From positions 1 to 36,127 of the IMG/VR virus record IMGVR_UViG_2627854066_000004: 36,127 nucleotides of DNA, one strand, 5' to 3'. Positions 12,454-33,920 of this stretch are shown piece after piece; within the stretch, counting starts at the first letter, position 1, and each line of letters starts with the position of its first letter. The notes under the pieces were generated by a model. It had not been told where the DNA came from. It saw nothing but the letters and a program-made list of their open reading frames with translations, and made no database searches. The position numbers were made by a program, and so were the translations under genes. The stretch comes from a virus. Lineage: Duplodnaviria > Heunggongvirae > Uroviricota > Caudoviricetes.

Positions 12454-14203
12454 CAGAACTCCATAACCGTGAAACGCTCGTTTTCTCCTTCGCCGCCAAT
12501 TGGTTCGTTAATGACAGCAAGCATGGTTGCCCACGCAAGGTCGCCGTGGCTGATCCCCCTCGCGCGGTCCGTTTCGTAAGTGATAAAGCCGCCCGGTGTT
12601 TTCACCTTACGCACGGCGTTAAAGGCCGCGACCAGCTCGCGTTCGGCGCGATCGTATTCCCACCGTCCGGCACGCATTATTTGCAGCATTTTCAGTACCA
12701 GCGACCGTTTGGATGACAGCGTGAAGGTGTACGGAATAGCAGCAGGGAAAAACCGCTTCACTATCTGATAAACAGCCTCCCCGTTCCCGCCCGTCACATC
12801 AATGCCGATGTGTTCCACGTTGTAGCGACACGTGAACTCTTCAATGACTCTGGCCTGTTCTTCAAACTCCAGCCCCTGAACGCGTCGCGTCTCCACCGTT
12901 CGAAAACGGCCACCAGGAACAGCCGGAGGAACCACCACGGACACAGCGCCGCTGTCGCCGTTGCCACTGCTGCCGTTTGCGTCATACCCAATCCATACCG
13001 GACGATTCCCCATCGGGCGGGGAGCAAAAGGTTTCCAGTCTTTCCAGTCGTCGTATCCGTCAACACCGCAGCCAATCAGGATATTCAGGTTAAATGCCGA
13101 TTCCCCTTCGCGGACAAACTCACACATATAGAGATTGCGGAACTCGTCTTCGGTGTTTTCATCACGAATTTCGTCAATATCGGTGTGTTTCCAGCCGTGA
13201 TTAACCACATCTTCCAGCGTGACAATTTGCCGCCACGTCCGGTCAGGGCAGATAAGCCCGTTATGCAGCGTTTTCCAGTCCACAGAAAAACGCTGGCGTT
13301 TATGCGTGGCCTTTTTCTCGTTCCAGCGGTCGCCGTTCCAGTAGGCGTATGCCTCGTGCGTTTCGGTGGATGGCGTGGAGAAGTAGGTGCGCCGCAGTCC
13401 GCTGAGGGTTGCCATAGCGCCAGCCACCTTGCGCAGTTCAGCAAAGCGGCTGACCCAGAAAAATTCATCAAAATAAAAATTGCCCGTGTAGGACTGTGCC
13501 GTCGCAGCAGAAGTACCAAGAAAATGCAGCTCTGCACCGTTGGAGAGGATGATTTTATCGCCCCCTTTCAGCTCCACATCAACTTCAGATGCAGCCTTCT
13601 GAATAATGCTTTTAAACTGGAACGCCTGACGACGCGACGCAGACAAAAAAATCTGGTTACGCTGGTAAGGTTGTGCCACATCGTCACGCAGTGCCATCAG
13701 CAGTGCTTCCTGTGCAAAATACCAGGTCGCCCCAATCTGTCGGGATTTCAGGATCATCCTGTTACGTATCCCGGCTTCCCTGCAAAGGGTCAGAGAGTCA
13801 AACCAGCCCCGCTGATGCCACTCCAGCCTGCTGATGATTTTTTCCCGCAGTGCGGCAATCTGTTCCGGCGTGAAATGATTTTTGAGTTTTTCGCCCGGCT
13901 TTTCTTTCCTGTGGCCGTCGCATCCGGCTGGCCATCATGCAGTTTTTTAAGCTGCCGGGTCAGCAGGTCTATTTCCTTGAAGTCACCACCTGTTTTACTC
14001 TGTTTTTCAGTAAGCTGGATGAGGCGCGCATCGATGGACTGCGTGACACGCTGCACGGGTGGTGTTTCATCCCACTGGTCGCGTTTTTTCCACGCATAAA
14101 TCGTGTTCGGGTTTATTCCCATCAGACGTGATATTTCTGCGGGCGGATAACCCTGCCAGTAAAGTTGCCGCGCACGCTGGCGCACAAAAGCGTCCTGAAT
14201 CAT
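12453..14203 (-). pseudogene. P: terminase large subunit (P2 gpP family), interrupted by an apparent -1 frameshift
   Basis: The N-terminal piece (ORF 13790-14203) and the C-terminal piece (ORF 12453-13757, whose frame stays open upstream) are in different frames. The switch lies in a T-run at about 13899-13909: GGAAAG where GGAAAAG would give a continuous ...ATATGKEKPGEKLKNHF... Confidence 0.75.
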
Positions 14204-14357
14204 TGCTCCCCCTGAGTAATTACAGGAAGATTACCCGCGCGCGAAACCGTTCTCCTTAACCCCCTGTTCTGGCCGTTTTCTTACAACAAAAGCCCTTTGT
14301 ATCAGCCTGTTACGCTTTGCCATCATGACTGAAGAACCAGTCAGAGGGGCAAAAACT
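14204..14357. promoter_or_regulatory. divergent late-promoter region between P and O
   Basis: 154-bp gap between divergently transcribed packaging and head operons; promoter elements were not resolved. Confidence 0.35.
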
Positions 14358-21192: not shown

Positions 21193-22088
21193 ATGCCTGC
21201 CGTTGACCTTTCCCAGTTACCGGAACCCGCCATCATCGCGGAGCCTGACTTTGAGGCAATTCTGGCTGACACAAAGGCCATGATGATTGCGGCTTATCCC
21301 GCCGAACAGCGTGAAGCCGTCTCCGCCGCGCTGGAGCTGGAATCGGAACCCCTGAACGTTATCGCCCAGACAACAGCGTTTCGTGAAATGCTGTTACGCC
21401 AGCGGGTCAATGAGGGGGCACGCGCCTGCATGTTAAGCCACAGCGCCGGGACAGACCTGGACAACCTCGCGGGCAATATGAACACAAAGCGCCTGACCAT
21501 CACTCCGGCAACGGATACCACCGACGCGGTGATGGAGAGCGACACCTCGCTGAGACTGCGGGCGCAGCGGGCGTACGACGGCCTGAGTGTTGCTGGCCCG
21601 TCAGGTGCATACGAGTATTTTGCCCGCAGCGCCAGCGGTCTGGTGCGTGATGCGCGGGCTATCAGCCCGTCTCCGGCAAATGTGACGGTTTCCATCCTGT
21701 CCACTGAGGGCGACGGCACAGCAACGGAGGCGTTGCTTAATACCGTTCGCGCCGTTCTGAATGCAGAGGATACCCGCCCGGTGGCCGACCGCCTGACCGT
21801 ACAGAGCGCCAGAATCGTGACATGGCGGCTGAATGCAAAACTGTACTTTTACCCGGCCCGGAATCCGAACCTATTCTGGCCGCGGCTGAATCGTCGTTCA
21901 GGAAGTGGCTGGCTGAGCAGGGGCTTATCGGTCAGGACGTGGCGTTGTCCGCCATTGCTGCCGCACTGCATGTGCACGGTGTGCAACGCGTGGAGATAAT
22001 CGAACCCACACAGAATATGACCATCAGCGACATACAGGCGGCGCGCTGTGAGTCATTCACCATCAGCGAAGGTGGACGCAATGAGTAA
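21193..22088 (+). pseudogene. J: baseplate protein (P2 gpJ family), interrupted by an apparent 1-nt deletion
   Basis: ORF 21193-21999 loses its protein-like character after ...LYFYP, while the frame of ORF 21822-22088 continues with GPESEPILAAAE... The sequence reads CCCGGCCCGG at 21852-21861 where CCCGGGCCCGG would restore the frame. Confidence 0.75.
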
Positions 22089-22689
22089 TTCACTGTTACC
22101 ACCATCAGCCAGCAATTTCATGCGTTGTGCCGAAGCCGTCGGAACACGCATTACAGACATTCCGGTAGACCTCAACACGCTGTGGTCGCCGGACACCTGC
22201 CCGGTGCATCTGCTGCCTTATCTCGCCTGGGCGTTTTCCGTTGACCGCTGGGATCGCAACTGGCCGGAAGAGACAAAGCGACAGGTAATTCGTGATGCAT
22301 GGCTGATACACCGACACAAAGGGACCATCAGCGCACTGCGAAGAGCCGTGGAGCCTCTCGGCTACCTGATTGAAGTAAAGGAGTGGTGGCAACTCAACGA
22401 GGAGCCAGGAACATTTCGCATTGTTGTCGGAGTACTTGATCAGGGCATCACCGATGAAATGTATCAGGAACTTGAGCGCCTTATTGCGGATGCAAAACCA
22501 GTAAGTCGCCATCTGACGGGGCTGGCGATCAGCCTGAGTGTGAACGGAAAGATTTTCGTTGGTACGGGATGCTATCACGGCGATGCCCTGACGGTTTATC
22601 CCTACACCCCGGAGTCCATTATTGTCGAAGGGGATTATTTCCCTGCCCCGGCCATTCATTTAATTGATAATCTGAGAGTAAACGCATGA
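22081..22689 (+). CDS. I: baseplate protein, P2 gpI family
   Basis: 202 aa from ATG 22081, overlapping the J stop. Confidence 0.8.
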   Translation: MSNSLLPPSASNFMRCAEAVGTRITDIPVDLNTLWSPDTCPVHLLPYLAWAFSVDRWDRNWPEETKRQVIRDAWLIHRHKGTISALRRAVEPLGYLIEVKEWWQLNEEPGTFRIVVGVLDQGITDEMYQELERLIADAKPVSRHLTGLAISLSVNGKIFVGTGCYHGDALTVYPYTPESIIVEGDYFPAPAIHLIDNLRVNA

Positions 22690-24299
22690 CAGTGAAATAC
22701 TACGCCATTCTGACTAATCAGGGCGCAGCACGACTGGCTAACGCGACGATGCTCGGCAGTAAGCTGAATCTGACGCAAATGGCCGTTGGTGATGCAAATG
22801 GTGTGTTACCAACACCAGACCCTGCACAAACAAAACTGATTAACCAGAAACGCATTGCACCGCTGAATCTTCTGAGTGTTGACCCTAACAATCAGAGCCA
22901 GATTATTGCGGAGCAAATCATCCCTGAAAACGAGGGAGGATTCTGGATCCGTGAGATTGGTCTTTATGATGATGAAGGTGTACTCATTGCGGTGGCAAAC
23001 TGCCCGGAAACGTACAAACCGCAGTTGCAGGAAGGCAGTGGACGCACCCAGACTATCCGCATGATTCTGGTTGTCACGAACACCGAAGCCATCACGCTGA
23101 AAATCGACCCGTCTGTGGTTCTGGCAACCCGCAAATATGTGGATGATAAAATCTCAGAGCACGAACAGTCACGACGTCACCCAGACGCCTCGCTGACCGT
23201 AAAAGGTTTTACTCAGTTAAGCAGTGCAATTAACAGTGAATCAGAAACACTGGCCGCAACACCGAAAGCGGTTAAGGCTGCATATGACCTGGCTAACGAG
23301 AAATATACCGCCCAGAACGCCACCACTACACAAAAAGGGATTGTTCAGCTCAGTAGCGCCACGAACAGCACGTCTGAAACACTGGCAGCGACACCAAAAG
23401 CTGTTAAGGCGGTAATGGATGAAACGAACAAGAAAGCACCATTAAACAGCCCGGCACTGACCGGAACGCCAACAACACCAACAGCGGCACAGGGGACTAA
23501 TAGTACCCAGATCGCAAGCACGGCTTTCGTTATGGCCGCGATTGCCGCACTTGTAGACTCGTCACCTGATGCACTGAACACGCTGAACGAACTGGCTGCG
23601 GCGCTGGGCAATGACCCGAATTTTGCGACCACCATGACTAACGCGCTTGCGGGTAAGCAACCGAAGGATGCCACCCTGACGGCGCTGGCGGAGCTTGCTA
23701 CATCAGCAGATAAACTCCCATATTTTACAGGGGCAGATCGTGCCGCGTTAACCGCGTTGACAAGTGTTGGACGTGCCATTCTTGGCAAAACCAGCACTCA
23801 GGGAGTTCTTGATTACCTTGGTTTAGGAGAAGGCTCTGCACTGCCCGTTGGTGTGCCCGTTCCGTGGCCCTTAGCAACACCACCAACGGGCTGGCTGAAA
23901 TGTAACGGTGCAGCATTTTCTTCTGAAATGTACCCCAATCTGGCAAAAGCCTACCCCACCAATAAATTACCGGATTTACGGGGCGAATTTATTCGTGGCT
24001 GGGATGATGGGCGAGGAATTGATGCAGCACGCGCTTTATTGAGCATTCAAACCGGGATGTTGGAAAAACACCGCCATATTGTTGTAGCTAACGATGGATA
24101 TGACACAAAGGATGAATGGGAGTTGGCCACGATTTTCAAAAAAACATATACACAAGGCAGGGGGCTTGATGCCACAAATACAGGAGGGAGTTTGATTCCA
24201 TCACCAACGCTTCATTCACGAGGAAGTATTGGTAACACAGGTGGTAGTGAAACCCGCCCCCGCAATATTGCATTTAACTATATCGTGAGGGCGGCTTAG
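22686..24299 (+). CDS. H: tail fibre protein, P2 gpH / Mu S family, with a constant N-terminal part and an exchangeable C-terminal segment
   Basis: 537 aa; the C-terminal part from ...LGLGEGSALPVGVPVPWP... onward is shared at its start with three inverted downstream cassettes; conserved C-terminus RPRNIAFNYIVRAA. Confidence 0.85.
   Translation: MTVKYYAILTNQGAARLANATMLGSKLNLTQMAVGDANGVLPTPDPAQTKLINQKRIAPLNLLSVDPNNQSQIIAEQIIPENEGGFWIREIGLYDDEGVLIAVANCPETYKPQLQEGSGRTQTIRMILVVTNTEAITLKIDPSVVLATRKYVDDKISEHEQSRRHPDASLTVKGFTQLSSAINSESETLAATPKAVKAAYDLANEKYTAQNATTTQKGIVQLSSATNSTSETLAATPKAVKAVMDETNKKAPLNSPALTGTPTTPTAAQGTNSTQIASTAFVMAAIAALVDSSPDALNTLNELAAALGNDPNFATTMTNALAGKQPKDATLTALAELATSADKLPYFTGADRAALTALTSVGRAILGKTSTQGVLDYLGLGEGSALPVGVPVPWPLATPPTGWLKCNGAAFSSEMYPNLAKAYPTNKLPDLRGEFIRGWDDGRGIDAARALLSIQTGMLEKHRHIVVANDGYDTKDEWELATIFKKTYTQGRGLDATNTGGSLIPSPTLHSRGSIGNTGGSETRPRNIAFNYIVRAA
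23806..23831 (+). repeat. recombination site for the DNA invertase (gix/hix-like) inside H
   Basis: TTCTTGATTACC-TT-GGTTTAGGAGAA, 26 bp with a central TT dinucleotide and half-sites resembling Hin/Gin sites; the inner arm and about 200 bp downstream are repeated in inverted orientation at 25367-25392, 25884-25909 and 26362-26387. Confidence 0.6.
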
Positions 24300-24305
24300 T
24301 TATAT

Positions 24306-24917
24306 TCAACTGGCTGCTGCCAGTGGTATTTCCGGCAAGTTGATATCTGGTGCCATGTTTATATCCATTGCGTTCAGCGCGTCTATATAATCCAGCACGG
24401 CGTTAAGCCGGGTGGTTTCTGCCTGCGTCAACTTCCGCCCGGCCTGCAACTTCAACTGAATCAGACTTATGGAAGCCATTGCCGCATCAGCCAGTGACTG
24501 GCGCTTGGTTTCTGCCGCTTCTACTGCGGCACTATGTTGTGCCTCAGTATCTGTCACCCATTTTTCACCATCCCATTTATCGTATGGTGTTGACGGGGAG
24601 ATAGTGGTTGTATTTTTCGGGTAGTCACCTAGCGTCGTGATTTCTTCGGTGTTTCCCGTGTCAGTGTTATAGACGGTTTCACCACGATGATCTGGCGTAT
24701 ACTCCCATGAATTTAAATTCTCCGAACGGCGGATAGCATAGCCCGCTTTATGTGCGCCCGGGGCATCTAAACAGGAATTTGCCGGAATACCGACACCCGC
24801 AGCAAGATATTCAGTTGATTCGGAAATATATTCCCGTGTCTCACCATCATAGTTATAAACGACGATGTTTCCTGCCTGTACGGCAATAAGGTCATCATTT
24901 AATATCGCGTTATTCAT
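24306..24917 (-). CDS. tail fibre assembly protein (P2 gpG / Mu U family)
   Basis: 203 aa on the minus strand, translationally coupled to cassette 1 and convergent with the current H C-terminus. Confidence 0.8.
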   Translation of the reverse strand: MNNAILNDDLIAVQAGNIVVYNYDGETREYISESTEYLAAGVGIPANSCLDAPGAHKAGYAIRRSENLNSWEYTPDHRGETVYNTDTGNTEEITTLGDYPKNTTTISPSTPYDKWDGEKWVTDTEAQHSAAVEAAETKRQSLADAAMASISLIQLKLQAGRKLTQAETTRLNAVLDYIDALNAMDINMAPDINLPEIPLAAAS

Positions 24918-25392
24918 TATGCGGTTCTCACAATATAATTGAAGGCAATATTGCGTGGGCGGGTTTCATTCCCCTCTGAGGATTCCGTTCTGTATTGACT
25001 GGTAAATCTACCGTTAATTGCACCTTGCCGGACGGCGTTATCTGTCGACAACAGACTATCCCCGCCTTTGTCATTTGGCACCAGTACCGTGTTATCCCAC
25101 GCATCCCATGACCGAATATTATGATAATGACTTCCTGTTAACCACCCCTGCATGCTTAAGATGACCCTTCCGGCATCCACCCCGCGCCCATCATCCCAGC
25201 CACGGATAAATTCACCGCGTAAGTCTGGTAATTTATTGGTGGGGTAAGCCATTGCCAGTCTGGGATACATTTCAGAAGAAAATGCTGCGCCGTTACATTT
25301 CAGCCACCCCGTTGGCGGCGTGGCTGAGGGCCATGGAACAGGTACACCAACGGGCAGTGCAGAGCCTTCCCCCAAACCAACGTTTTCATGCT
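24917..25392 (-). other. promoterless alternative tail-fibre C-terminal cassette 1 with its crossover site
   Basis: Minus-strand reading frame starting in the crossover sequence (GEGSALPVGVPVPWPSATPPTGWLKCNGAAFSSEMYP...) and ending ...NIAFNYIVRTA; no start codon or RBS of its own. Confidence 0.7.
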
Positions 25393-25909
25393 GCTCTTAC
25401 GATGTAATTAAACGCAATGTTGCGTGGGCGGTTTTCGTTTGCAGTTGGAACAATTCTTGAAGCATCAAGGCCAATCACTTTTGGGTAAACAGTGCCATCT
25501 GTTCTTTCAGTCACCATACTTCTGATTAAGGAGAAATAACTATTGTTCGTTGAGGGACTCAAAGGCACCACTGCCCCCTTAAATGAGCCTACTGATTCCC
25601 ATATTGAATAATTTTCGGTGTTTACAGTCTTGAACTCACCATAGATATTACGTATGGCATCACCTTGAGCGGATAATATTGTTCTCCCCGCATCCACACC
25701 ACGTCCGTCATCCCAACCACGGATAAATTCACCGCGTAAATCCGGTAATTTATTGGTGGGATAAGCCTTTGCCAGTTTTGGGTACTTTTCAGAAGAAAAT
25801 GCTGCTCCGTTGCATTTCAGCCATCCCGTTGGCGGTGTTTCTAAGGGCCACGGAACGGGTACACCAACGGGCAGTGCAGAGCCTTCCCCCAAACCAACGT
25901 TTTCATGCT
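25386..25909 (-). other. promoterless alternative tail-fibre C-terminal cassette 2 with its crossover site
   Basis: Same conserved 5' block and 3' end (...NIAFNYIVRAA) with a different middle; its stop codon lies inside the crossover site of cassette 1. Confidence 0.7.
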
Positions 25910-26387
25910 GCCCTTACGATGTAATTAAACGCAATGTTATGGGGGCGTGTTTCAGATGCTGTGCGAACTGAGCGAGAGGCGTCGAATGTCCATACAGAAG
26001 CACCATATCCTTCAATGATCTCAGTTGGTTGTAAGCCTACTGATAATATAGAGTCAGTTTGACTAAATGGTCCTGAATTAAGCGCATCTTTAAAAAGCTG
26101 AGTACGCCCAAAAGTGCCAACTATATTCTGAATAGCGTCAGACTGTGCAGACAGTAGGTTGCGCCCATTATCAACGCCCCGTCCGTCATCCCAGCCGCGA
26201 ATAAATTCGCCCCGTAAATCCGGTAATTTATTGGTGGGGTAGGCCTTTGCCAGATTGGGGTACATTTCAGAAGAAAATGCTGCGCCGTTACATTTCAGCC
26301 ACCCCGTTGGCAGCGTGGCTGAGGGCCATGGAACGGGCACACCAACGGGCAGCGCAGAGCCTTCCCCCAAACCAACGTTTTCGTCTT
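25903..26387 (-). other. promoterless alternative tail-fibre C-terminal cassette 3 with its crossover site
   Basis: Same conserved ends with a third variable middle; its crossover site 26362-26387 is next to the invertase gene. Confidence 0.7.
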
Positions 26388-26441
26388 TATCCCTACCTAT
26401 ACCAACTATGTATTTTTCACGAAACAAAAAGGATGTTTTTT

Positions 26442-27041
26442 ATGCAAATTGGCTATATTCGTGTGTCAACAAATGACCAGAACACGGATTTACAACGCAA
26501 TGCACTGAACTGCGCAGGATGTGAACTGATTTTTGAAGATAAAATCAGCGGAACGAAATCAGCCAGACCGGGATTGAAAAAACTGCTCAGAACGCTATCA
26601 GAAGGAGATACGCTGGTTGTCTGGAAGCTGGACAGACTGGGCAGAAGTATGAAACACCTGATCACGTTTATTGAGGAATTGCGGAAAAAAGGTGTTAATT
26701 TCCGTAGTCTGACGGACAGCATTGACACATCAACACCCATGGGGCGTTTCTTTTTTCACGTCATGGGGGCTTTAGCCGAAATGGAACGTGAATTAATTGT
26801 AGAGCGTACACTGGCCGGGCTGGCAGCAGCACGCGCACAAGGACGCATTGGCGGACGTCGCCCGAAGTTGACAAAAGAACAACACGAGCAAATAGCGAGG
26901 CTGATTAAAAACGGTCATGACAGGAAACAACTGGCGATCATTTACGACATCGGCATATCGACGATTTATCGTTATCACCCTGTAGGCGATATACAGGCTG
27001 AAGAAACAACCAGGCAGACTCAGGAAAATGAAAACCGCTAA
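26442..27041 (+). CDS. site-specific DNA invertase, serine recombinase of the Hin/Gin/Cin/Pin family
   Basis: 199 aa; N-terminus MQIGYIRVSTNDQNTDLQ with the catalytic Ser, and a C-terminal HTH (GISTIYRY); AAGGA RBS. Confidence 0.9.
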   Translation: MQIGYIRVSTNDQNTDLQRNALNCAGCELIFEDKISGTKSARPGLKKLLRTLSEGDTLVVWKLDRLGRSMKHLITFIEELRKKGVNFRSLTDSIDTSTPMGRFFFHVMGALAEMERELIVERTLAGLAAARAQGRIGGRRPKLTKEQHEQIARLIKNGHDRKQLAIIYDIGISTIYRYHPVGDIQAEETTRQTQENENR

Positions 27042-27059
27042 TCTGACCATTAGCGGTTT
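27032..27059. terminator. bidirectional stem-loop between the convergent invertase and U genes
   Basis: AAACCGCTA-N10-TAGCGGTTT with T-runs on both strands. Confidence 0.5.
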
Positions 27060-27067
27060 TGCGTTAA

Positions 27068-27562
27068 TCAAAACAGCCCTTTAACGGAGCTGGCCGCGCT
27101 GTTAAGGGATGATGTGACCTTATCTTTGAAGCCGGACAGCATATCACTGAACGATGAGGATTGCAGGCGCTCCCGCAAATCCTCATCACAGCGTTCAAGA
27201 GTCAGTGAAAATTCTATCTTTTTCGCCTTACCGTAGCGATCAAACTCGGAGCGGGTCGTATTCGTTTCAGTCAGTACATACATGCCGTAAATCTGCCCGA
27301 CACCATCAATCAGAGGCCAGGGGCGTCCTGTATATGCCTGCGTGGTCAGCAGCGAAAGCGACACTTCGCCACCTGTAATTTCAGGATAAAGCACGCCAGA
27401 AAGCACGATGCGATCATCACCTGCACCGATATACTGCCAGCTTGCTGAGCGGTTTACGCGCTCATTTTTCACATGCCGCCAGCTTTTGTTTTGCTGTAAC
27501 TGCTGATGCGGCAGTGTGCGCAGCTCAAAAACAAACATGCCGTAGATCATCATCATGGCCAT
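27068..27562 (-). CDS. U: tail protein, P2 gpU family
   Basis: 164 aa, last gene of the minus-strand tail block. Confidence 0.75.
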   Translation of the reverse strand: MAMMMIYGMFVFELRTLPHQQLQQNKSWRHVKNERVNRSASWQYIGAGDDRIVLSGVLYPEITGGEVSLSLLTTQAYTGRPWPLIDGVGQIYGMYVLTETNTTRSEFDRYGKAKKIEFSLTLERCDEDLRERLQSSSFSDMLSGFKDKVTSSLNSAASSVKGLF

Positions 27563-27568
27563 GACTCC

Positions 27569-30412
27569 TCAATCTTTATCGTAAAAACTGCCACGCCCGG
27601 CACGGGCGCGCCGTTCCGTTTCTGCCCTGACCATTTCACCGACCAGTTTCGCCAGTTCGCGGGGATTCTGCGTAACAACGTTATGCAGATGAACATGAAT
27701 TTCACCACCAAATCCGGAGGCAACAGGCTCCCGGTTACGGGAAGTTACAGGAACTGATGCCACTGGAGATCGTATGGCCTCCGCCACCGGGCGGGAGCTG
27801 GCCGCAACAACAGGGACCAGCGCCGGAGGCAGCGGAGCCGGGACCACGGGGGTGATATTAATTGCGGGGGCAGGCTTACCGACCTGCGCAATCTTCCGCT
27901 CCTGCCACTCCCCACGAACAGCAAGTGCGCGGGGCAGGTTCTTAAAGACAATATCGCCGGGGCCAATGCGTTTTTTCGTCTCATCAACCAGCTTACCTGT
28001 GTTATCAGCAATTTTGCTGAGTCTGCGTAGTGTACCGGTATTGCTGTCTGTGAGCGGTTTGTTGTCTTTGGGTTTATCACCTCCGGTGCCATTGCCATTT
28101 TCCACAGGCTTCGGCGGATTGATTTTCGCCAGGTCCCCCTGAAGCAAGGCAACCTTGTCCTGAAGAATGGCCGCACGCTGTGCGTCTTCGATTTTCTTTC
28201 TCGCCCTTTCCGCTTCATCCGGAAGCACACCGAGTTTTTCAAGTATCCACGCCAGCGTATCCAGCAACATTTTTGCGGGCGTCAGAACAAGCTGTAACGC
28301 ACCGCCAAGAACGTTACCGAATATCTCGCCAGCACTGGTACATTTATCCAGCGTTTCCTTGCTGGACTCCATCGGTGACAGCAGCGATTTAAACCAGTTA
28401 AACACCTGACTTATCCCGCTTCCGATTGCGTCAAAAACAGGACCAAACCGTTCAAAGGTTTCGCGCAACGGAGCCAGCCGTTCCATAATCCCACTGAACA
28501 CCCCGGCATAAAACGCCTTGATGGGTTCCCAGTATTTCCAGATGAGAACCGCCGCAGCCACAAACGCGGCAACAATCAATCCGACCGGACTGAACAGCGC
28601 CCCGATAGCGCCACCCAGCAACGAGATGGAACCTGTTACCATTCCCCATAGTGCTGGCAGCACCCTGACGACATTCATTGATCCTGTCAGGAGGGAAAAA
28701 CCAAGACGCAGTTTTGCCAGCGGACCAGCAAGCACACCAATAGCCAGCGACAACGAGCCAATCGTTGCAGTCATTGCCAGCAACGCACCGCCTGCAATCA
28801 GTAGCTGGCGCGTCAGTGCAGGATGCGCCTGCGCCAGCGCCGTCACCTTTGAGACCACCTTCGTCAGCCACTGCGTGACAGAACGCAGCGGACCGTCAAT
28901 CAGATCGGCAATGCGGATACGCAGCCCTTCCCATGCACTGCCGAGTGATTTCAGATCGCCGTCAAGGTTGTTGGCCATAACCTTTGCCGTGCGTTCAGCC
29001 TCACCGCGCGCGCCTTCAAGTTCTTTTCTCAGTTTAGGTAAGGAGCCGTCACCTGCCGCATCAACGAGGGCCATAAATGATGTGAAAGCCTCTTCTCCGG
29101 CAATGTCCTTAAAGAACGATACCCGGTCAACTTCCCCGTATTTGCGGGTGGCTTTATAAAGGTCGGCCAGCAAATCCTCCATCGGGCGCATTTTGCCGTT
29201 CGCATCAGAGACGGACACGCCCAGCTCTTTCAGAGCTTCTGCCGCCGCCTTTGGCGGTGATGCCAGACGAGCCAGGCTGGCACGCATTGCCGTCCCGGCA
29301 TCACTCCCTCTGATACCCATATTCGCCAACACGCCAGCCATCGCTGCGGCCTGCTCCAGCGATATTCCCAGCTTACCCGCTACCGGACCTGCATATTTCA
29401 TGGTTTCGCCCAGTGCGCGAAGGTCAGTGTTGGTACGGGTAAACGCTGCGGTGAGTGTGTCACCGACCCGGTCCATCTGGTCAGCAGAAAGGCCGAACTG
29501 CGTCAGGATGTTTGAGCCAATATCCGCCGTCTCGCCGAGATCCATACCGCCAGCCGTTGCCATGCTCAGCACACCGGGAAGCGCAGCCTGAATGGCCTGT
29601 GGTGTGAAGCCAGCCATTGCAAGAAATGCCTGTCCACTGGCGGCATCTCCAGCGGTGAACTGCGTTTCAGAGCCAAGTTTTAACGCCTGCTCACGCAGCG
29701 CCTTAAACTGCGGGCTGTTCTGGTCGATTCGCGTCAGCGCCTGAACGCGGGACATCTCTTTCCCGAACCCGATCGCAGGCTGCAAAAAACGCCCGGCAGC
29801 ATAGCCGCCCGCCGCTACCGCACCAATTGCCAGCGCACCACCTGTTTTCAGTTTTTCCGCTGTTTCCTGCGCGCGCGAATACCGCTCACGCGCCCGCGTT
29901 ACACGCGCAAGCGCCTGCCGTTCGCGTTCAAGCTGGTTGTTGTATTGTTCGGTGCGTCTGATGGCCTGCTGGATGGTGTTATCGCTGCCTGTCAGGGAAA
30001 TGCCGTGGCGTTTCAGCTCTCCGCCAAGCTCCCGCATTTTCTGAATTTCCCGTGTGCGCGATTCATTCAGGCGTTCAAGCCGGGTGCTTAACTGCTGCAT
30101 CAGCTTTTGTTGTTTTTCGCTGAGCACTGTCCCCGTGCGTTGTAACTGATTAAGGGCGTTAAGCTGGCGTCGTGCTTTCACGATGCCCGCATCCGCTTTA
30201 CTGACAGCGTCACGGGCGCGCTCAAATGAACGCGCCTGACGCTCGAGATTTTTGATCGCCCCCTGCGTTCGCTGGATGGAGTCACCAAACTGCCCCATCA
30301 GGCGGCGGGCGTTTTCGGCAGGCCGGGTCAGCCTGTCAACGGCGCTGAAAGCGACCCGGATATCAAGAGTCTTCATTGTCTGCATTCCCGCTGCGAAGTG
30401 CCGCCCGCTCAC
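27569..30412 (-). CDS. T: tail tape measure protein, P2 gpT family
   Basis: 947 aa, Ala/Gly-rich with coiled regions and hydrophobic segments; start uncertain (GTG at 30412 or internal ATGs at 30385 or 30376). Confidence 0.85.
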   Translation of the reverse strand: MSGRHFAAGMQTMKTLDIRVAFSAVDRLTRPAENARRLMGQFGDSIQRTQGAIKNLERQARSFERARDAVSKADAGIVKARRQLNALNQLQRTGTVLSEKQQKLMQQLSTRLERLNESRTREIQKMRELGGELKRHGISLTGSDNTIQQAIRRTEQYNNQLERERQALARVTRARERYSRAQETAEKLKTGGALAIGAVAAGGYAAGRFLQPAIGFGKEMSRVQALTRIDQNSPQFKALREQALKLGSETQFTAGDAASGQAFLAMAGFTPQAIQAALPGVLSMATAGGMDLGETADIGSNILTQFGLSADQMDRVGDTLTAAFTRTNTDLRALGETMKYAGPVAGKLGISLEQAAAMAGVLANMGIRGSDAGTAMRASLARLASPPKAAAEALKELGVSVSDANGKMRPMEDLLADLYKATRKYGEVDRVSFFKDIAGEEAFTSFMALVDAAGDGSLPKLRKELEGARGEAERTAKVMANNLDGDLKSLGSAWEGLRIRIADLIDGPLRSVTQWLTKVVSKVTALAQAHPALTRQLLIAGGALLAMTATIGSLSLAIGVLAGPLAKLRLGFSLLTGSMNVVRVLPALWGMVTGSISLLGGAIGALFSPVGLIVAAFVAAAVLIWKYWEPIKAFYAGVFSGIMERLAPLRETFERFGPVFDAIGSGISQVFNWFKSLLSPMESSKETLDKCTSAGEIFGNVLGGALQLVLTPAKMLLDTLAWILEKLGVLPDEAERARKKIEDAQRAAILQDKVALLQGDLAKINPPKPVENGNGTGGDKPKDNKPLTDSNTGTLRRLSKIADNTGKLVDETKKRIGPGDIVFKNLPRALAVRGEWQERKIAQVGKPAPAINITPVVPAPLPPALVPVVAASSRPVAEAIRSPVASVPVTSRNREPVASGFGGEIHVHLHNVVTQNPRELAKLVGEMVRAETERRARAGRGSFYDKD

Positions 30413-30901
30413 GCCAGCTAACCACTTCGCCGGGCGTCATCATGAAGATTTCGGCGGGCGACCAGTTAAAAATGGCGGCGATATCTGCCACCAGATCTTC
30501 GATGTGCTCAAAGCACACCAGGGTGATTACGCTGCCGTCTCCTGCACGCTCTTCGCGCCAGAGTCTGGCTCGCTCATAAAATTTACAGCCACAGCGCACA
30601 ACTGAATAAAATCGCGTGACGACATTTTTTTAATCATCACTTCATCCAGTCGCGGTGATGTCACGCGTGACAGCAGCGTAAACATGGATTCCGCTTTCAG
30701 ATTCAGCACATCAGACAGCGACAGACCACGCAGGGATCCAGCCTGTTCAATAGCCCCGGTGATCTCCACATACGTGATTTTTTCGCCACCACGCTCAATT
30801 GGTCGGGTCAGTTTTACGCCACGTTCGACAGCCATATCCTCACCTGCCGTCACATCATCCACCACGGTGTTATTCCGGGTTTCAGTATCGATGTCTTTCA
30901 T
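30363..30901 (-). CDS. tail assembly chaperone E+E' fusion made by programmed -1 frameshift
   Basis: Seven-A run on the coding strand (plus-strand T-run 30625-30631); the -1 frame continues open to 30363 and overlaps the T start, as for P2 E/E' and lambda G/GT. Confidence 0.6.
30527..30901 (-). CDS. E: tail assembly chaperone, P2 gpE family
   Basis: 124 aa with an AAGGAG RBS; contains the A7 slippery run near its 3' end. Confidence 0.7.
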   Translation of the reverse strand: MKDIDTETRNNTVVDDVTAGEDMAVERGVKLTRPIERGGEKITYVEITGAIEQAGSLRGLSLSDVLNLKAESMFTLLSRVTSPRLDEVMIKKMSSRDFIQLCAVAVNFMSEPDSGAKSVQETAA

Positions 30902-30956
30902 CAGTTTTCTCCTTTTCAGTCAGAGGCGACGCACTGCGCCGCCTGCATATTACTTA

Positions 30957-31469
30957 TCAGCCAAGCCCGAGCGCGGAACGGATACGGTCAGGCACAATGT
31001 CCTTGCCGTCCTTCCGGTAGATGTGGTTCAACAGGTCGATTTCCCACAGCGGGCGATCGTTAACGCTCAGCTTGTAGTAGGTGTTTTTGACAGCGTAAGT
31101 GTGTGATGTGGCTTCGCCCTGTTTGGCTTCCCCCATATCAATTTCCGTCACACGTCCGCGCATCTCGATTTCATACAGATCGCTTTCTGCATCGGTGTAG
31201 TATTCACCCGCAAAACGCAGCAGCGTGCCGTCAATCGTGCCGCCATATTTAAGGAACAGCGCACGAACAGCTCCCCCCATGACAAAACTCGCATCAAGCG
31301 CGGAGTCGTCCAGACCGAGATCAATACTTACCGCCCCCATCATGCCACCACCACGATAGCTGTCGGTTTTGCGCGTCAGTTTGGGCGGCGTGACGGATGT
31401 CACTTTACCCACTTCGTTTTCACCATCCACAAACAACGTAAAAAAGCGAAGATGTTTTGGTACAGCCAT
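30957..31469 (-). CDS. FII: tail tube protein, P2 gpFII family
   Basis: 170 aa immediately downstream of the sheath gene, with ATGA coupling. Confidence 0.85.
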   Translation of the reverse strand: MAVPKHLRFFTLFVDGENEVGKVTSVTPPKLTRKTDSYRGGGMMGAVSIDLGLDDSALDASFVMGGAVRALFLKYGGTIDGTLLRFAGEYYTDAESDLYEIEMRGRVTEIDMGEAKQGEATSHTYAVKNTYYKLSVNDRPLWEIDLLNHIYRKDGKDIVPDRIRSALGLG

Positions 31470-32653
31470 CAGGCACCTCCCAGCACCGCAAATGCGGGAC
31501 CAAAGAATTCATCAGTAAACGTCTGGTAAAGCTCCATGTCTTCCAGCGGGGGAACAGGCGTATATTTGTAGCGAATACGCACACGTCCCTGACGTAAATT
31601 CGTGGTGCCGTTATCCACCACGTCATACCAGCACTCCGCACCAATCAGTTTCCCGGCAGTAACCAGCGAATCCAGTTTTGCCCTGATGGCGCTGATAACA
31701 TCCTTCACGTTCGCAGGTGTCAGTGGACTGTCGATGGTTTCAAACTGCGCTTCCGCAATTGAATCAGCCAGCACCTGTGCGGTTCGGGTATACACCTCAA
31801 AGATGTAGGCGTTCGTTTCCGGTGTGCGGTTGCCCCAGAAGCGGAACCCGTTGCGACGAATAATGGTCGTGATTTCTTTGTTGTTGAGACTGTTGGCATC
31901 GCTGTCTTCGGCCTGCAACGACCAGAACACATGCCTGGACATCCCCAGCACATTTTTAACCGGAACGTTGGACAGCGATTTGTGCCAGCCCTGTTCATGG
32001 TCAATGTACGCACGAAGGCCGCACGCATAGGCAGGCGCGGGGAACGTTTCGTTTTCGCCACTTTTCGGGTTGTAGGCGATGAAGTCCGGCCATAAGAGCA
32101 TCACTTCACGTTCGTTGAATTTCTGGCGGTAGGTAATCGCTTCAGCCATCGTGTTACAGCCGTGACATGAGGCATACACAAATGCGCGCAGTTTACCCGC
32201 AATCACGCACAGGGATTTTGTCACCGCCTCCGTGTCCAGCTCCGGCGCGGCCAGAATACGCGGACGGTATCCGATGCTTTCATCCTGCTCTGCAACAAGC
32301 AGCGCATACATCCCCGTATAGCTGCCGTCATCCTCAGAACCACCGATAACCAGTTGATCCTGCGTCTTTTCGTCTTCTTCTTTGTGTTCAGCCACGCGAA
32401 CGACGATCACCTTTGTGCTCACCTGGTCTGCGATGGCCTTAAGCGCACGATAAAGCGTCCCCGTTGTTCCGCATTTTCCCAGCACGTCATTGACGCGGGT
32501 CAGCAGTGTGGGCTTGTTCAGCGGGAACAGCTTCGCGTCCGCATCATCCGCCGTTGCCACGATACCGATAACGCTGGAATCAACATCGTTAATCGCTGTT
32601 ACCAGGTCGGTATTTTCCGTAACACGGGCACCATGAAAACGAGTTTCACTCAT
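31469..32653 (-). CDS. FI: tail sheath protein, P2 gpFI family
   Basis: 394 aa, first gene of the minus-strand tail block. Confidence 0.9.
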   Translation of the reverse strand: MSETRFHGARVTENTDLVTAINDVDSSVIGIVATADDADAKLFPLNKPTLLTRVNDVLGKCGTTGTLYRALKAIADQVSTKVIVVRVAEHKEEDEKTQDQLVIGGSEDDGSYTGMYALLVAEQDESIGYRPRILAAPELDTEAVTKSLCVIAGKLRAFVYASCHGCNTMAEAITYRQKFNEREVMLLWPDFIAYNPKSGENETFPAPAYACGLRAYIDHEQGWHKSLSNVPVKNVLGMSRHVFWSLQAEDSDANSLNNKEITTIIRRNGFRFWGNRTPETNAYIFEVYTRTAQVLADSIAEAQFETIDSPLTPANVKDVISAIRAKLDSLVTAGKLIGAECWYDVVDNGTTNLRQGRVRIRYKYTPVPPLEDMELYQTFTDEFFGPAFAVLGGA

Positions 32654-32810
32654 AGCTTCAGCCCCTTGTATCCGTTAAATGATTCGGCAACAATCATCAC
32701 CCACCACGCGCGTAATCTCACCCCTGCGCCGTTCTCCCGCCACGGCGACAACAAAAAGCAGTAACCCCCTCCGCACGCACATGCGACCATGCCACACAGG
32801 GAGGGAGCAG

Positions 32811-33920
32811 ATGACCGACACCACCATGCAATTGCTCAGTCAAGGCACAGACCCTGTAAAAATGCCGGATTTTGATATTCTCGCGGAGGGTAAAACGCTG
32901 TCCGGCGTGGCAGAGCGCCTGATGAGCCTGTCGCTGACCGACAACCGGGGATTTGAGGCAGACCAGCTCACCATCACGCTGGATGATGCGGATGGTCAGT
33001 TGCAGCTACCGCCACGGGGCGCGCGCCTGAAGGTTCTCATTGGCTGGAAAGGCGAACCGCTGACAGAAAAAGGCACTTACATTGTTGATGAAATCGCTCA
33101 CGAAGGACCGCCGGACAGGCTGACTGTTTCGGCCAGAAGCGCAGATTTTCGGGATGAATTTAACGTTAAACGTGAGGTGTCCTGGCATGATGTGACCGTT
33201 GAGCGTGTGGTATCCGCCATCGCTCATCGGTATGGTCTGAAACCGCAAATCAGCGAAATGCTGATGGATATCGAAATCGACCACGCCGACCAGACCGAAG
33301 AAAGCGACATGTCCTTCCTTACGCGCATGGCGGAAATGCTGGGCGCAATCACCACGGTAAAAAGCGGCAATCTGTTATTCATCATGCCAGGTGGTGGCGT
33401 GAACGCACAGGGCCAGCCGTTGCCCTCGTTCGCCATTACACGCAGCAGCGGCGATCGCCATCAGTTCCGTATTGCTGACCGCGAGGCTTATACGGGGGTA
33501 CGCGCCTACTGGCTTGATCTTAATTACGGGAAAAAGAAAAAAGTCAGCGTAAAACGCCGTAAACCGCCAAAACCCAAAAAGGAGAAAAGCAGCAGCCGTG
33601 AAGGTGATTATATGGAAGGCGCGGAAGGCAATGTGTTTGTGTTACGCAAGACTTATCAGAACGAGCAGGCAGCAAGACGCGCAGCGGCGGCAAAGTGGCA
33701 GCAGCTACAACGCGGAGCCGCAGCGTTCTCCATCACGCTGGCGCGTGGACGTGCAGAACTCTACCCCGAAATGCATGGCACGGTAACAGGATTTAAAAGC
33801 GAGATTGATAATCAGGACTGGATTATTGCAAAAGCGGAGCACTCTATTGATAACAGTGGCTTTACCACGCAGCTTGAGCTTGAAGCAAAAATCCCGGAAT
33901 GGATAGCAGAAACAGAGTGA
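32811..33920 (+). CDS. D: tail protein D (P2 gpD family)
   Basis: 369 aa from ATG 32811 with a GGGAGGGAG RBS; followed by ogr as in P2. Confidence 0.8.
   Translation: MTDTTMQLLSQGTDPVKMPDFDILAEGKTLSGVAERLMSLSLTDNRGFEADQLTITLDDADGQLQLPPRGARLKVLIGWKGEPLTEKGTYIVDEIAHEGPPDRLTVSARSADFRDEFNVKREVSWHDVTVERVVSAIAHRYGLKPQISEMLMDIEIDHADQTEESDMSFLTRMAEMLGAITTVKSGNLLFIMPGGGVNAQGQPLPSFAITRSSGDRHQFRIADREAYTGVRAYWLDLNYGKKKKVSVKRRKPPKPKKEKSSSREGDYMEGAEGNVFVLRKTYQNEQAARRAAAAKWQQLQRGAAAFSITLARGRAELYPEMHGTVTGFKSEIDNQDWIIAKAEHSIDNSGFTTQLELEAKIPEWIAETE

What the first reader, a model, noticed from the sequence alone, without database searches (positions are those of the whole stretch)
23806..27041. Shufflon-like multi-cassette tail-fibre inversion system with four crossover sites
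The C-terminal part of tail fibre H begins at a 26-bp gix/hix-like site (TTCTTGATTACC-TT-GGTTTAGGAGAA). Three inverted, promoterless cassettes downstream each start with the same site and the same conserved approx. 200-bp block (GEGSALPVGVPVPWP...GWLKCNGAAFSSE.YP.LAKAYPTNKLPDLRGEFIRGWDDGRG) and end with the same approx. 45-bp block (RPRNIAFNYIVRAA), with different variable middles. Each cassette stop codon is embedded in the outer arm of the next crossover site. A Hin/Gin-family invertase gene is adjacent. This is more elaborate than the two-state G/C segments of Mu/P1 and resembles multiple-inversion systems, and it is not a feature of phage P2 itself. Only one tail fibre assembly gene is present, co-oriented with cassette 1, so three of the four possible fibre C-termini (including the one currently fused to H) lack a co-transcribed chaperone.
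Basis: partly seen in the sequence, partly recalled or inferred. Interest (0 to 1): 0.7.

Follow-up and report, generated by a model that had tools for sequence, protein, structure and literature searches.

The report
Four-site invertible tail-fibre tip switch
A P2/P88-like E. coli prophage carries a real DNA-flipping switch that can join any of four alternative receptor-binding tips to its tail-fibre gene, but the same locus type has already been shown experimentally to do this in other E. coli strains, so it is a good example of a known system, not a new one.

Summary
Tail-fibre gene H (22686-24299) is interrupted by a 26-bp gix/hix-type site at 23806-23831. Three inverted sites (25367-25392, 25884-25909, 26362-26387) each head a promoterless 3' cassette. 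A Gin-family serine invertase gene lies next to them (26442-27041).

All cassettes share a ~205-nt 5' block and a ~50-nt 3' block around different middles. The outer half-sites differ, and only two of the four stop codons lie inside a site.

Other E. coli genomes carry the predicted isomers. Strain CH4793 has the whole 23818-26378 segment at 99.8% identity, inverted, with breakpoints at the TT cores. Two assemblies of strain E2348/69 hold different isomers.

Goldberg et al. 2014 showed by sequencing and PCR that the three-site E2348/69 allele, the same locus at about 97% identity, flips in culture as a "shufflon". Forde et al. 2014 documented the same site type in EC958. Min of plasmid p15B is the classic multi-site precedent, so the system is already known.

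The single tfa gene flips with the cassettes: it is co-oriented with H in 6 of the 12 reachable isomers, and only the currently fused cassette can never have it downstream. How tfa is expressed when antisense remains open.

The parts
22686..23819 (+). Constant 5' part of tail-fibre gene H, up to the core of s1. It encodes the N-terminal tail-collar fibre domain and the fibre repeats.
   Evidence: Pfam Phage_tail_fib 1.5e-62 and Phage_fiber_2 2.2e-42. It is 98-99% identical in loci that carry different fused cassettes.
23806..23831 (+). Crossover site s1: TTCTTGATTACC-TT-GGTTTAGGAGAA, core TT at 23818-23819.
   Evidence: The inverted segment in CH4793 begins at 23818. The site matches the published EC958 Phi2 site TCCTCAATTACC-TT-GGTTTAGGAGAA (PMC4134206, Table 3).
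23820..24299 (+). Cassette B (159 aa), currently fused in frame to H. It has a collar domain, an HRH motif and a variable tip.
   Evidence: Pfam Collar 4e-14; match to the T4 gp37 tip structure 2xgf at 1e-16; cassette typing.
24306..24917 (-). The only tail-fibre assembly (chaperone) gene, tfa (203 aa). It is convergent with B and overlaps the stop of C (TAATG).
   Evidence: Pfam Caudo_TAP 3.4e-32. It is 77.5% identical to e14 TfaE, and no second tfa exists in the window.
24917..25378 (-). Cassette C (153 aa), promoterless, with no start codon of its own.
   Evidence: H-C fusions are found as single aligned pieces in 30 E. coli genomes.
25367..25392 (-). Crossover site s2: AGCATGAAAACG-TT-GGTTTGGGGGAA. 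Its outer arm holds the TGA stop of cassette E.
25386..25895 (-). Cassette E (169 aa), promoterless.
   Evidence: A single-piece H-E fusion is present in NZ_CM142797.1.
25884..25909 (-). Crossover site s3: AGCATGAAAACG-TT-GGTTTGGGGGAA. Its outer arm holds the TGA stop of cassette D.
25903..26373 (-). Cassette D (156 aa), promoterless.
   Evidence: H-D fusions are present in CH4793 and HCM-28C-2.
26362..26387 (-). Crossover site s4: AAGACGAAAACG-TT-GGTTTGGGGGAA. Its outer arm is the constant DNA next to the invertase gene.
   Evidence: In CH4793 this outer arm is joined to the inner arm of cassette B.
26442..27041 (+). Gin/Min-family serine DNA invertase (199 aa), outside the invertible DNA.
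   Evidence: Pfam Resolvase 3.3e-51 and HTH_7 1.7e-12. Match to Gin structures 4m6f/3uj3 at 4e-90, with S9 and wild-type M114. It carries the residues conserved in Fis/enhancer-dependent invertases: K46, K47, R50, Q150, R153, L154 (sequence read against PMC3798978).
26487..26549 (+). Candidate recombinational enhancer inside the 5' end of the invertase gene. Its position is inferred by homology with gin.
   Evidence: The 5' coding region aligns without gaps to Mu gin and e14 pinE. A Fis-consensus 15-mer, GAAGATAAAATCAGC, at gene nt 94-108 is shared with gin; the partner site 48 bp upstream is weak (G...T). Not proven.
27031..27060 (.). Perfect 12-bp hairpin between the invertase stop and the gpU stop; probably a two-way terminator.

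Best explanation
This is a Gin/Min-type multiple DNA-inversion switch for the receptor-binding tip of the tail fibre, carried by a P88/P2-like E. coli prophage.

Mechanism (inferred from the family, except where marked shown). The serine invertase encoded at 26442-27041 binds as dimers to 26-bp sites and pairs s1 with any site in the opposite orientation, probably in a Fis/enhancer invertasome. It cuts at the shared TT core, rotates the subunits and religates. This inverts the DNA in between.

Consequence (shown from the sequence). Each site sits in the codons Leu/Val-Gly-Leu-Gly-Glu-Gly, so the constant 5' part of H becomes joined in frame to cassette B, C, E or D. Each cassette is a complete tip module: a conserved collar domain, a variable receptor-binding middle and a conserved C-terminal strand.

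Successive inversions also permute the silent cassettes. From the arrangement in the window ([H] B> <tfa <C <E <D [inv]), 12 isomers and 4 fibre variants are reachable.

The one TfaE-type chaperone gene rides inside the invertible DNA, between B and C. It probably serves all cassettes through their shared terminal blocks (inferred). The expected outcome is a lysogen population that releases phage with four different host ranges.
For: Anatomy:
- Four sites share the core TT and the inner arm, and the fusions are in frame.
- The cassettes have conserved ends and variable middles.
- Every cassette has a Collar domain, and tfa is a Caudo_TAP protein.
- The cassette 5' block is homologous to the collar of T4 gp37 and gp12.

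Enzyme:
- The invertase is intact, matches Gin structures at 4e-90, and has S9, M114 and the Fis-contact signature residues (PMC3798978, PMC3575834).

Natural isomers:
- CH4793 carries window 23818-26378 at 99.8% identity but inverted relative to H and the invertase. This gives [H] D> E> C> tfa> <B [inv], with the half-sites swapped exactly at the core.
- E2348/69 assembly NC_011601.1 is [H] A> B> <tfa <C [inv], while assembly NZ_CP059840.2 of the same strain is [H] C> tfa> <B <A [inv].
- H-C fusions occur in 30 genomes and an H-E fusion in GPEC1031.
- Related loci hold 2 to 6 cassettes drawn from a pool of at least 8 types, always with one tfa.

Direct experiment on the same locus elsewhere:
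- Goldberg 2014, Table S1, reports inversions at NC_011601.1 1891695-1893703 and 1892127-1893703. These coincide with the sites I located in that record at about 1891683, 1892122 and 1893708 (site starts at L002 positions 2007, 2446 and 4032, converted from locus to record coordinates).
- Four variants coexisted in single-colony cultures and were validated by PCR.
- In EC958 Phi2, PacBio reads showed both orientations at sites of the same sequence type.
Against: - No reads from the source strain are available, so flipping in this particular genome is inferred, not observed.
- The enhancer is only partly recognisable: one good Fis-like 15-mer and one weak one.
- In 6 of the 12 isomers, including the present one, tfa is antisense to the H operon. 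I found no promoter that would express it there, and a hairpin at 27031-27060 probably blocks read-through from the convergent tail operon.
- The prophage may be defective. There are 1-nt deletions in gpJ and in the large terminase gene, unless these are sequencing errors. If they are real, the switch might no longer yield phage.
Confidence: 0.9

Rival explanations
1. Frozen relic: the cassettes and sites record past inversions, but in this genome the switch no longer operates, for example because the invertase is not expressed, the enhancer is defective or the prophage is decaying.
For: - Two 1-nt deletions in essential genes (gpJ and the large terminase) hint at decay.
- No clear promoter for the invertase was found.
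- The second Fis site is weak.
Against: - The invertase ORF is intact and 99.2-99.5% identical at nucleotide level to those of the three related loci compared, one of them E2348/69, where flipping was measured.
- All four sites keep the same core and inner arm.
- Related invertases can act in trans (PMC4134206, PMC12529663).
Confidence: 0.06
2. The isomers arise by general (RecA-dependent) homologous recombination between the 209-240-nt inverted repeats, and the adjacent invertase is incidental.
For: The repeats are long enough and 84-91% identical. In locus L001 the A/G polymorphism of the inner arm is not linked to cassette B, which suggests that some gene conversion occurs inside the blocks.
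Against: - In CH4793 both breakpoints fall within 3 nt of the TT cores, and the outer and inner half-sites are cleanly exchanged.
- Variants coexist at 10-50% within single-colony cultures of E2348/69, far too frequent for RecA acting on diverged 200-nt repeats.
- The sites match the family consensus.
Confidence: 0.03
3. Same inversion chemistry but a different beneficiary: in a decaying prophage the switch is kept by the host, because the alternative fibre tips it produces mask cell-surface receptors against other phages. This is what has been reported for the e14 StfE2 protein made after PinQ-driven inversion.
For: - The cassettes are of the e14 StfE type (56-60% identical, with shared terminal blocks), and the Tfa is 77.5% identical to TfaE.
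- StfE2 was reported to block T2 adsorption (PMC12529663).
- The window may carry frameshifts in gpJ and the terminase gene.
Against: - Here H is a full-length late gene in an otherwise complete P88-like prophage that is 95% identical to an inducible phage.
- No evidence exists for expression in the lysogen.
- The frameshifts may be sequencing errors.
Confidence: 0.08

Closest known systems
Tail-fibre 'shufflon' of the P2-like prophage of EPEC E2348/69 (Goldberg et al. 2014, Genome Med, PMC4272514)
   Same: It is the same locus in a related prophage. About 97% nucleotide identity over 85% of the 3.8-kb query; the invertase is 99.5% identical; H, tfa and cassettes B and C are the same; the site sequences are the same. 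It was shown experimentally to hold several coexisting inversion variants.
   Different: E2348/69 has three sites and cassettes A, B and C (4 variants, 3 C-termini). The window has four sites and cassettes B, C, E and D (12 isomers, 4 C-termini).
Min multiple-inversion system of plasmid p15B (Sandmeier, Iida, Arber 1990-1992), and its relatives on P1-like phage-plasmids
   Same: One Din-family serine invertase acts on more than two 26-bp crossover sites, giving overlapping invertible segments that carry 3' tail-fibre gene segments fused to a constant 5' part. The closest phage-borne invertase (93.7% aa) and many cassette matches are on P1-like plasmids.
   Different: Min sits on a P1-type plasmid prophage and has six sites (from the literature and my own knowledge; the p15B sequence itself could not be fetched here). 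The window has four sites in a chromosomal P88/P2-like prophage.
EC958 prophage Phi2 invertible tail-fibre segment (Forde et al. 2014, PMC4134206)
   Same: Same site type (…ATTACC-TT-GGTTTAGGAGAA and …AAACG-TT-GGTTTGGGGGAA), Collar-domain cassettes, a single tfa and an adjacent invertase. Both orientations were seen in PacBio reads.
   Different: It was reported as a two-site, 2067-bp switch. I find a third internal site there. The cassette types differ.
Two-state switches: Mu G segment/Gin, P1 C segment/Cin, e14 P segment/Pin, phage P88
   Same: Same enzyme family (about 75% aa identity to Gin), the same 26-bp site design, the invertase gene just outside one site, and in-frame exchange of fibre 3' ends. 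P88 has the same genome backbone as the window (95%).
   Different: These have two sites and a mirror-image Sv-U / U'-Sv' pair, with one chaperone per tip. The window has four sites, four tips of one structural family and a single chaperone.
R64 shufflon (Rci / sfx / pilV)
   Same: Functional logic only: several inversely oriented sites shuffle 3' cassettes onto a constant 5' gene part.
   Different: R64 uses a tyrosine recombinase (Rci), 19-bp sfx sites and pilus tip adhesin genes. Here the enzyme is a serine invertase with 26-bp gix-type sites.

Membership tests
Din-family (Gin/Cin/Hin/Pin/Min) serine DNA-invertase systems | Small serine recombinase with an N-terminal catalytic domain carrying the active-site Ser, and a C-terminal helix-turn-helix | tested here: met
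   Pfam Resolvase 3.3e-51 and HTH_7 1.7e-12. Match to Gin structures at 4e-90 over residues 1-185, with S9 in the VSTNDQ motif.
Din-family (Gin/Cin/Hin/Pin/Min) serine DNA-invertase systems | 26-bp crossover sites made of two imperfect 12-bp inverted half-sites around a 2-bp core, with the core identical in all partner sites | tested here: met
   All four sites have a TT core. The inner arms read GGTTT[AG]GG[AG]GAA and the outer arms read ..[AT][AT]AC[CG]. They agree with the published Phi2 sites and the Sandmeier consensus quoted in PMC4134206.
Din-family (Gin/Cin/Hin/Pin/Min) serine DNA-invertase systems | Recombining sites in inverted orientation, with the invertase gene adjacent to and outside the invertible DNA | tested here: met
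   s1 is on the + strand and s2-s4 on the - strand. The invertase gene starts 55 nt beyond s4.
Din-family (Gin/Cin/Hin/Pin/Min) serine DNA-invertase systems | Fis-dependent recombinational enhancer (two Fis sites 48 bp apart) in the 5' part of the invertase gene | tested here: inconclusive
   The 5' coding region aligns with gin and pinE. One Fis-like 15-mer is shared with gin, but its partner 48 bp upstream is weak. The protein does have the residues conserved only in Fis/enhancer-dependent invertases (K46, K47, R50, Q150, R153, L154 against Hin K47, K/R48, K/R51, Q151, R154, L155; PMC3798978) and a wild-type M114.
Din-family (Gin/Cin/Hin/Pin/Min) serine DNA-invertase systems | Inversion actually occurs, with exchange at the core dinucleotide | tested here: met
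   Comparative evidence: the CH4793 isomer has breakpoints at the cores, and two E2348/69 assemblies differ. Experimental evidence for the same locus elsewhere: PMC4272514. Not tested in the source strain itself.
Multiple-inversion (Min-type) tail-fibre systems | More than two crossover sites served by one invertase, giving overlapping invertible segments and permuted cassette orders | tested here: met
   There are four sites in the window. Permuted orders of the same cassettes occur in other genomes, for example D>E>C>tfa><B and A>B><tfa<C<D. 12 isomers are reachable.
Multiple-inversion (Min-type) tail-fibre systems | Silent 3' gene segments that lack a start codon and promoter and become fused in frame to one constant 5' gene part | tested here: met
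   The site lies in the codons L/V-G-L-G-E-G, and every fusion is in frame. Natural H-B, H-C, H-D and H-E fusions exist.
Mu G / P1 C type two-state segment | Exactly two sites flanking mirror-image tip-plus-chaperone pairs (Sv-U / U'-Sv') | tested here: not met
   The window has four sites, four tips and one tfa. Compare Mu and P88.
R64-type shufflon | Tyrosine recombinase Rci acting on 19-bp sfx repeats | tested here: not met
   The recombinase here is a serine resolvase/invertase-family protein, and the sites are of the 26-bp gix type.

The most novel reading that the evidence does not exclude
The single chaperone gene inside the invertible DNA may make this a two-layer switch. In half of the 12 isomers, and always when tip B is fused as it is now, tfa is antisense to the fibre operon.

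Three readings are open. (a) These are deliberate 'fibre-off' or chaperone-independent states. (b) An unrecognised, orientation-independent route expresses tfa. (c) In a decaying prophage the switch has been taken over by the host, to display alternative fibre tips that mask receptors against other phages, as reported for e14 StfE2.

None of these has been described for this locus type. One tfa per array is conserved in all nine loci of this family examined.
Probability: 0.15. Interest if true: 0.5.

Novelty: already known. Interest (0 to 1): 0.22.

Why it matters
This switch lets one prophage hedge its bets over four host receptors without carrying four fibre genes. The cassette pool is shared among P2/P88-like prophages, P1-like plasmids and e14.

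For annotation, it explains why such loci are labelled as strings of short 'phage tail protein' genes and pseudogenes, and why assemblies of one strain disagree in this region.

As a discovery it adds little. The same locus type has been measured flipping in E2348/69 and EC958, and multi-site Min has been known since 1990.

The one point worth an experiment is how a single chaperone gene that itself flips can serve all the tips.

Tried and rejected
1. P2-type late promoter (TGT-N12-ACA) reading into the invertible DNA from the invertase side. A perfect dyad exists at 26409-26426, but the window has only 4 such dyads against 9 expected by chance. No -10 element sits at the right distance, and the known late-operon starts in the window lack perfect dyads. 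Rejected as evidence.

2. Sigma-70-like promoters that could drive tfa when it is antisense. None was found in the constant DNA next to s4 or upstream of tfa; overall there were 3 hits against 5.7 expected.

3. Read-through from the convergent FI-FII-E-T-U operon as a source of tfa transcripts. This is made unlikely by the perfect 12-bp two-way hairpin at 27031-27060.

4. Simple Fis-motif scan for two sites 48 bp apart. Only one convincing site was found.

5. NCBIfam gave no specific family for H, the cassettes or tfa, and gave only sub-threshold hits for the invertase.

6. The large protein search returned thousands of 'recombinase family protein' entries. None was named Min, so identity to Min itself could not be measured. 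The Min paper PMC53420 is not held in the library.

7. The P1-like phage vB_EcoM-673R5 was fetched as a stand-in for Min. Its record has frameshifted genes (a split invertase and truncated cassettes), so it was not used for cassette typing.

8. A search for extra gix-like sites that might explain the inverted FI-U block relative to P2 found none.

Full report
WHAT IS THERE

The window is a P2-family prophage.
- Left to right it holds an integrase at its left end, the replication endonuclease, portal, terminase, capsid, baseplate and tail genes.
- Its first 22.6 kb are about 95% identical to the inducible coliphage P88 (Xuanwuvirus, Peduoviridae) and 96-97% identical to prophages in hundreds of E. 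coli chromosomes.
- The tail-fibre gene H (22686-24299, +) has the P2-type N-terminal domain and fibre repeats, followed by a Phage Tail Collar domain.

The crossover sites.
- At 23806-23831 the H reading frame crosses the sequence TTCTTGATTACC-TT-GGTTTAGGAGAA.
- Three further copies lie downstream on the opposite strand: 25367-25392 and 25884-25909 (both AGCATGAAAACG-TT-GGTTTGGGGGAA) and 26362-26387 (AAGACGAAAACG-TT-GGTTTGGGGGAA).
- A relaxed pattern search finds these four sites and no other convincing one in the 36 kb.

The cassettes.
- Each inverted site heads an open frame with no start codon of its own: C (153 aa), E (169 aa) and D (156 aa). The part of H after s1 is the fourth such cassette, B (159 aa).
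- The four share a nearly invariant first 68 residues (about 205 nt) and the last 14-16 residues (about 50 nt). Their middles cannot be aligned with one another.
- The repeats are far beyond chance: inverted repeats of 209-240 nt at 84-91% identity.
- The conserved 5' block is homologous to the collar domain of the T4 gp37 fibre tip (2xgf, 1e-16) and of gp12. Each cassette is therefore a whole receptor-binding tip module.

The other genes.
- One chaperone gene, tfa (24306-24917, -; Caudo_TAP), lies between B and C. It is convergent with B and overlaps the stop of C. It is the only tfa in the window.
- A 199-aa serine recombinase gene starts at 26442, 55 nt beyond the last site.
- That protein matches the crystal structures of Mu Gin at 4e-90. 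It has the catalytic S9, the wild-type M114 of Fis-dependent Gin (PMC3575834), and the basic helix-B and DBD helix-1 residues that McLean et al. found conserved only in Fis/enhancer-dependent invertases (PMC3798978).

CORRECTIONS TO THE OBSERVATION

- The sites are not identical. Only the TT core and the inner arm are shared. The outer arms are whatever lies upstream: H, the 3' end of the next cassette, or the DNA next to the invertase gene.
- 'Each cassette stop codon is embedded in the next site' holds for E and D only.
- The invertase ORF is 26442-27041, not the longer ORF that overlaps cassette D.

DOES IT FLIP?

I could not see reads from the source strain, but the predicted products exist in nature.

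- In E. coli CH4793 the stretch 23818-26378 of the window is present at 99.8% identity as one block, inverted relative to H and the invertase gene.
- The CH4793 arrangement is [H] D> E> C> tfa> <B [inv]. This is exactly the product of an s1 x s4 exchange on the window's [H] B> <tfa <C <E <D [inv].
- At the CH4793 joints, the H-side outer arm is now joined to the inner arm of D, and the invertase-side outer arm to the distinctive inner arm of B (GGTTTAGGAGAA). The exchange point is therefore within a few bases of the TT core.
- Two assemblies of the same strain, E2348/69, differ by such an inversion: A> B> <tfa <C versus C> tfa> <B <A.
- Synthetic H-C and H-E junction queries find single-piece matches: H-C in 30 genomes and H-E in one chromosome.
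- Among nine loci of this family, the arrays hold two to six cassettes drawn from at least eight tip types, always with one tfa.

THE LITERATURE SETTLES IT FOR THE LOCUS TYPE

- Goldberg et al. 2014 found by paired-end sequencing, and confirmed by PCR, that single-colony cultures of E2348/69 contain four coexisting variants of a 'shufflon' in a P2-like prophage, with three inverted repeats and three alternative C-termini.
- Their coordinates (NC_011601.1 1891695-1893703 and 1892127-1893703) are the three sites of my locus L002. That locus is about 97% identical to the window, and its invertase gene is 99.5% identical.
- Forde et al. 2014 saw both orientations of EC958 prophage Phi2 in PacBio reads. 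They list crossover sites of the same sequence type and relate them to Sandmeier's consensus for Mu, P1, e14, p15B and Shigella boydii.
- Multi-site inversion of tail-fibre 3' segments by one Din-family invertase is the defining property of Min of plasmid p15B (cited; details from my own knowledge). The nearest phage-borne invertase to ours (93.7% aa) sits on a P1-like phage-plasmid.

HOW IT MOST LIKELY WORKS

Shown:
- the anatomy;
- the in-frame geometry;
- an intact Gin-family enzyme;
- natural isomers with breakpoints at the cores;
- measured flipping of the same locus in another strain.

Inferred from the family:
- invertase dimers on two inverted sites are activated by Fis on an enhancer in the 5' end of the invertase gene;
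- they cut at the core, rotate and religate.

The enhancer is only partly recognisable. One Fis-like 15-mer is shared with gin, and its partner 48 bp upstream is weak.

THE CHAPERONE QUESTION

This overlooks that tfa flips too.
- Enumerating all inversions between oppositely oriented sites gives 12 isomers. tfa is co-oriented with H in six of them: always when C is fused, never when B is fused, and in half of the states with D or E fused.
- All four tips are of the e14 StfE type, and the Tfa is 77.5% identical to e14 TfaE. One chaperone acting through the shared terminal blocks is therefore plausible, but this is inference.
- What stays unexplained is how tfa is expressed when antisense, as in the window's present state. 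I found no promoter for it, and a perfect two-way hairpin at 27031-27060 probably stops read-through from the convergent tail operon.
- The design is conserved in all nine loci of this family, so it is tolerated or useful. This is the only part of the finding that might repay an experiment.

COMPARISON AND NOVELTY

- The system works like Min of p15B and meets each tested membership criterion of the Din-family invertase systems. The exception is the enhancer, which is inconclusive.
- It is not a Mu/P1-type two-state segment: it has four sites and one chaperone.
- It is not an R64 shufflon in the strict sense, because the recombinase is a serine and not a tyrosine enzyme.
- Phage P88 has the same backbone and carries a Mu-like two-state module with its own invertase at the same position. 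The window's array therefore looks like a module replacement within a conserved slot.
- The same locus has been characterised experimentally with three sites, and multi-site arrays with up to six cassettes sit in many RefSeq genomes. The four-site allele is thus another allele of a known system.

VERDICT

The chaperone inference is wrong in its geometry, and the system is already known. Interest is low (0.22). The residual novelty lies only in the expression and role of the single, flipping tfa.

Noticed in passing
window 21845-21855 (gpJ, 21193-22089): There is a 1-nt deletion (GGG to GG in TACCCGGGCCCGG) relative to E2348/69 and phage P88. It shifts the frame of baseplate gene J after residue about 219. 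It is either a sequencing error in a homopolymer or a real inactivating mutation.
   Followed up: partly
window 12453-14225 (large terminase subunit, - strand): The gene is split into two ORFs in different frames (12453-13757 and 13790-14203). The window is 1 nt shorter than phage PhiR44_2 over this stretch (1931 versus 1932 nt at 98.4% identity). This is a second possible frameshift in an essential gene.
   Followed up: partly
window 27068-33920: The tail operon FI-FII-E-T-U lies on the - strand, convergent with V-W-J-I-H, while gpD (32679-33920) is on the + strand. In P2 all of these read the same way. P88 and all related E. coli loci share the window's order, so it is a property of the P88-like group.
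   Followed up: partly
window 27031-27060: A perfect 12-bp hairpin (AAAACCGCTAAT...ATTAGCGGTTTT) overlaps the invertase stop codon and lies 8 nt from the gpU stop. It is likely a two-way terminator separating the two convergent late operons.
   Followed up: no
window 26409-26426: A perfect TGT-N12-ACA dyad (the P2 Ogr-box pattern) sits in the 55-nt constant spacer between s4 and the invertase start. It is also kept in a P1-like phage-plasmid. It is not statistically unusual (4 in the window against 9 expected), and no matching -10 element is present.
   Followed up: partly
L013 (phage P88, NC_026014.1 22562-27564): P88 has the same backbone as the window. At the same position it carries a Mu-type two-state module (fibre-U / U'-fibre') plus an invertase. 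The invertible tip region therefore behaves as an exchangeable module within a fixed slot.
   Followed up: partly
window 24060-24075 (B) and 25115-25130 (C); cassettes D and E: Cassettes B and C (and types F and G in other loci) have an H-x-H motif just after the conserved block, like the metal-binding needle of T4 gp37 and gp12. D and E have Q/R-N-I at that position. This suggests at least two structural subtypes of tip in one array.
   Followed up: no
L012 (EC958 Phi2, NZ_HG941718.1 about 1005540-1007607): This switch was published as a two-site switch, but a third internal site of the same type (GGCATAGAAACG-TT-GGTTTGGGGGAA) lies between its two silent cassettes. Phi2 may therefore also be a multi-inversion locus.
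   Followed up: partly
E. coli genome search results: A third or more of all matches to the cassette queries are on plasmids (722-932 places). In three P1-like plasmids the match to the H-E query runs from query nt 33, so it includes the last ~170 nt of the H constant part (about 90% identical). This points to exchange of the whole fibre-tip module between P1-like phage-plasmids and P2/P88-like prophages.
   Followed up: no
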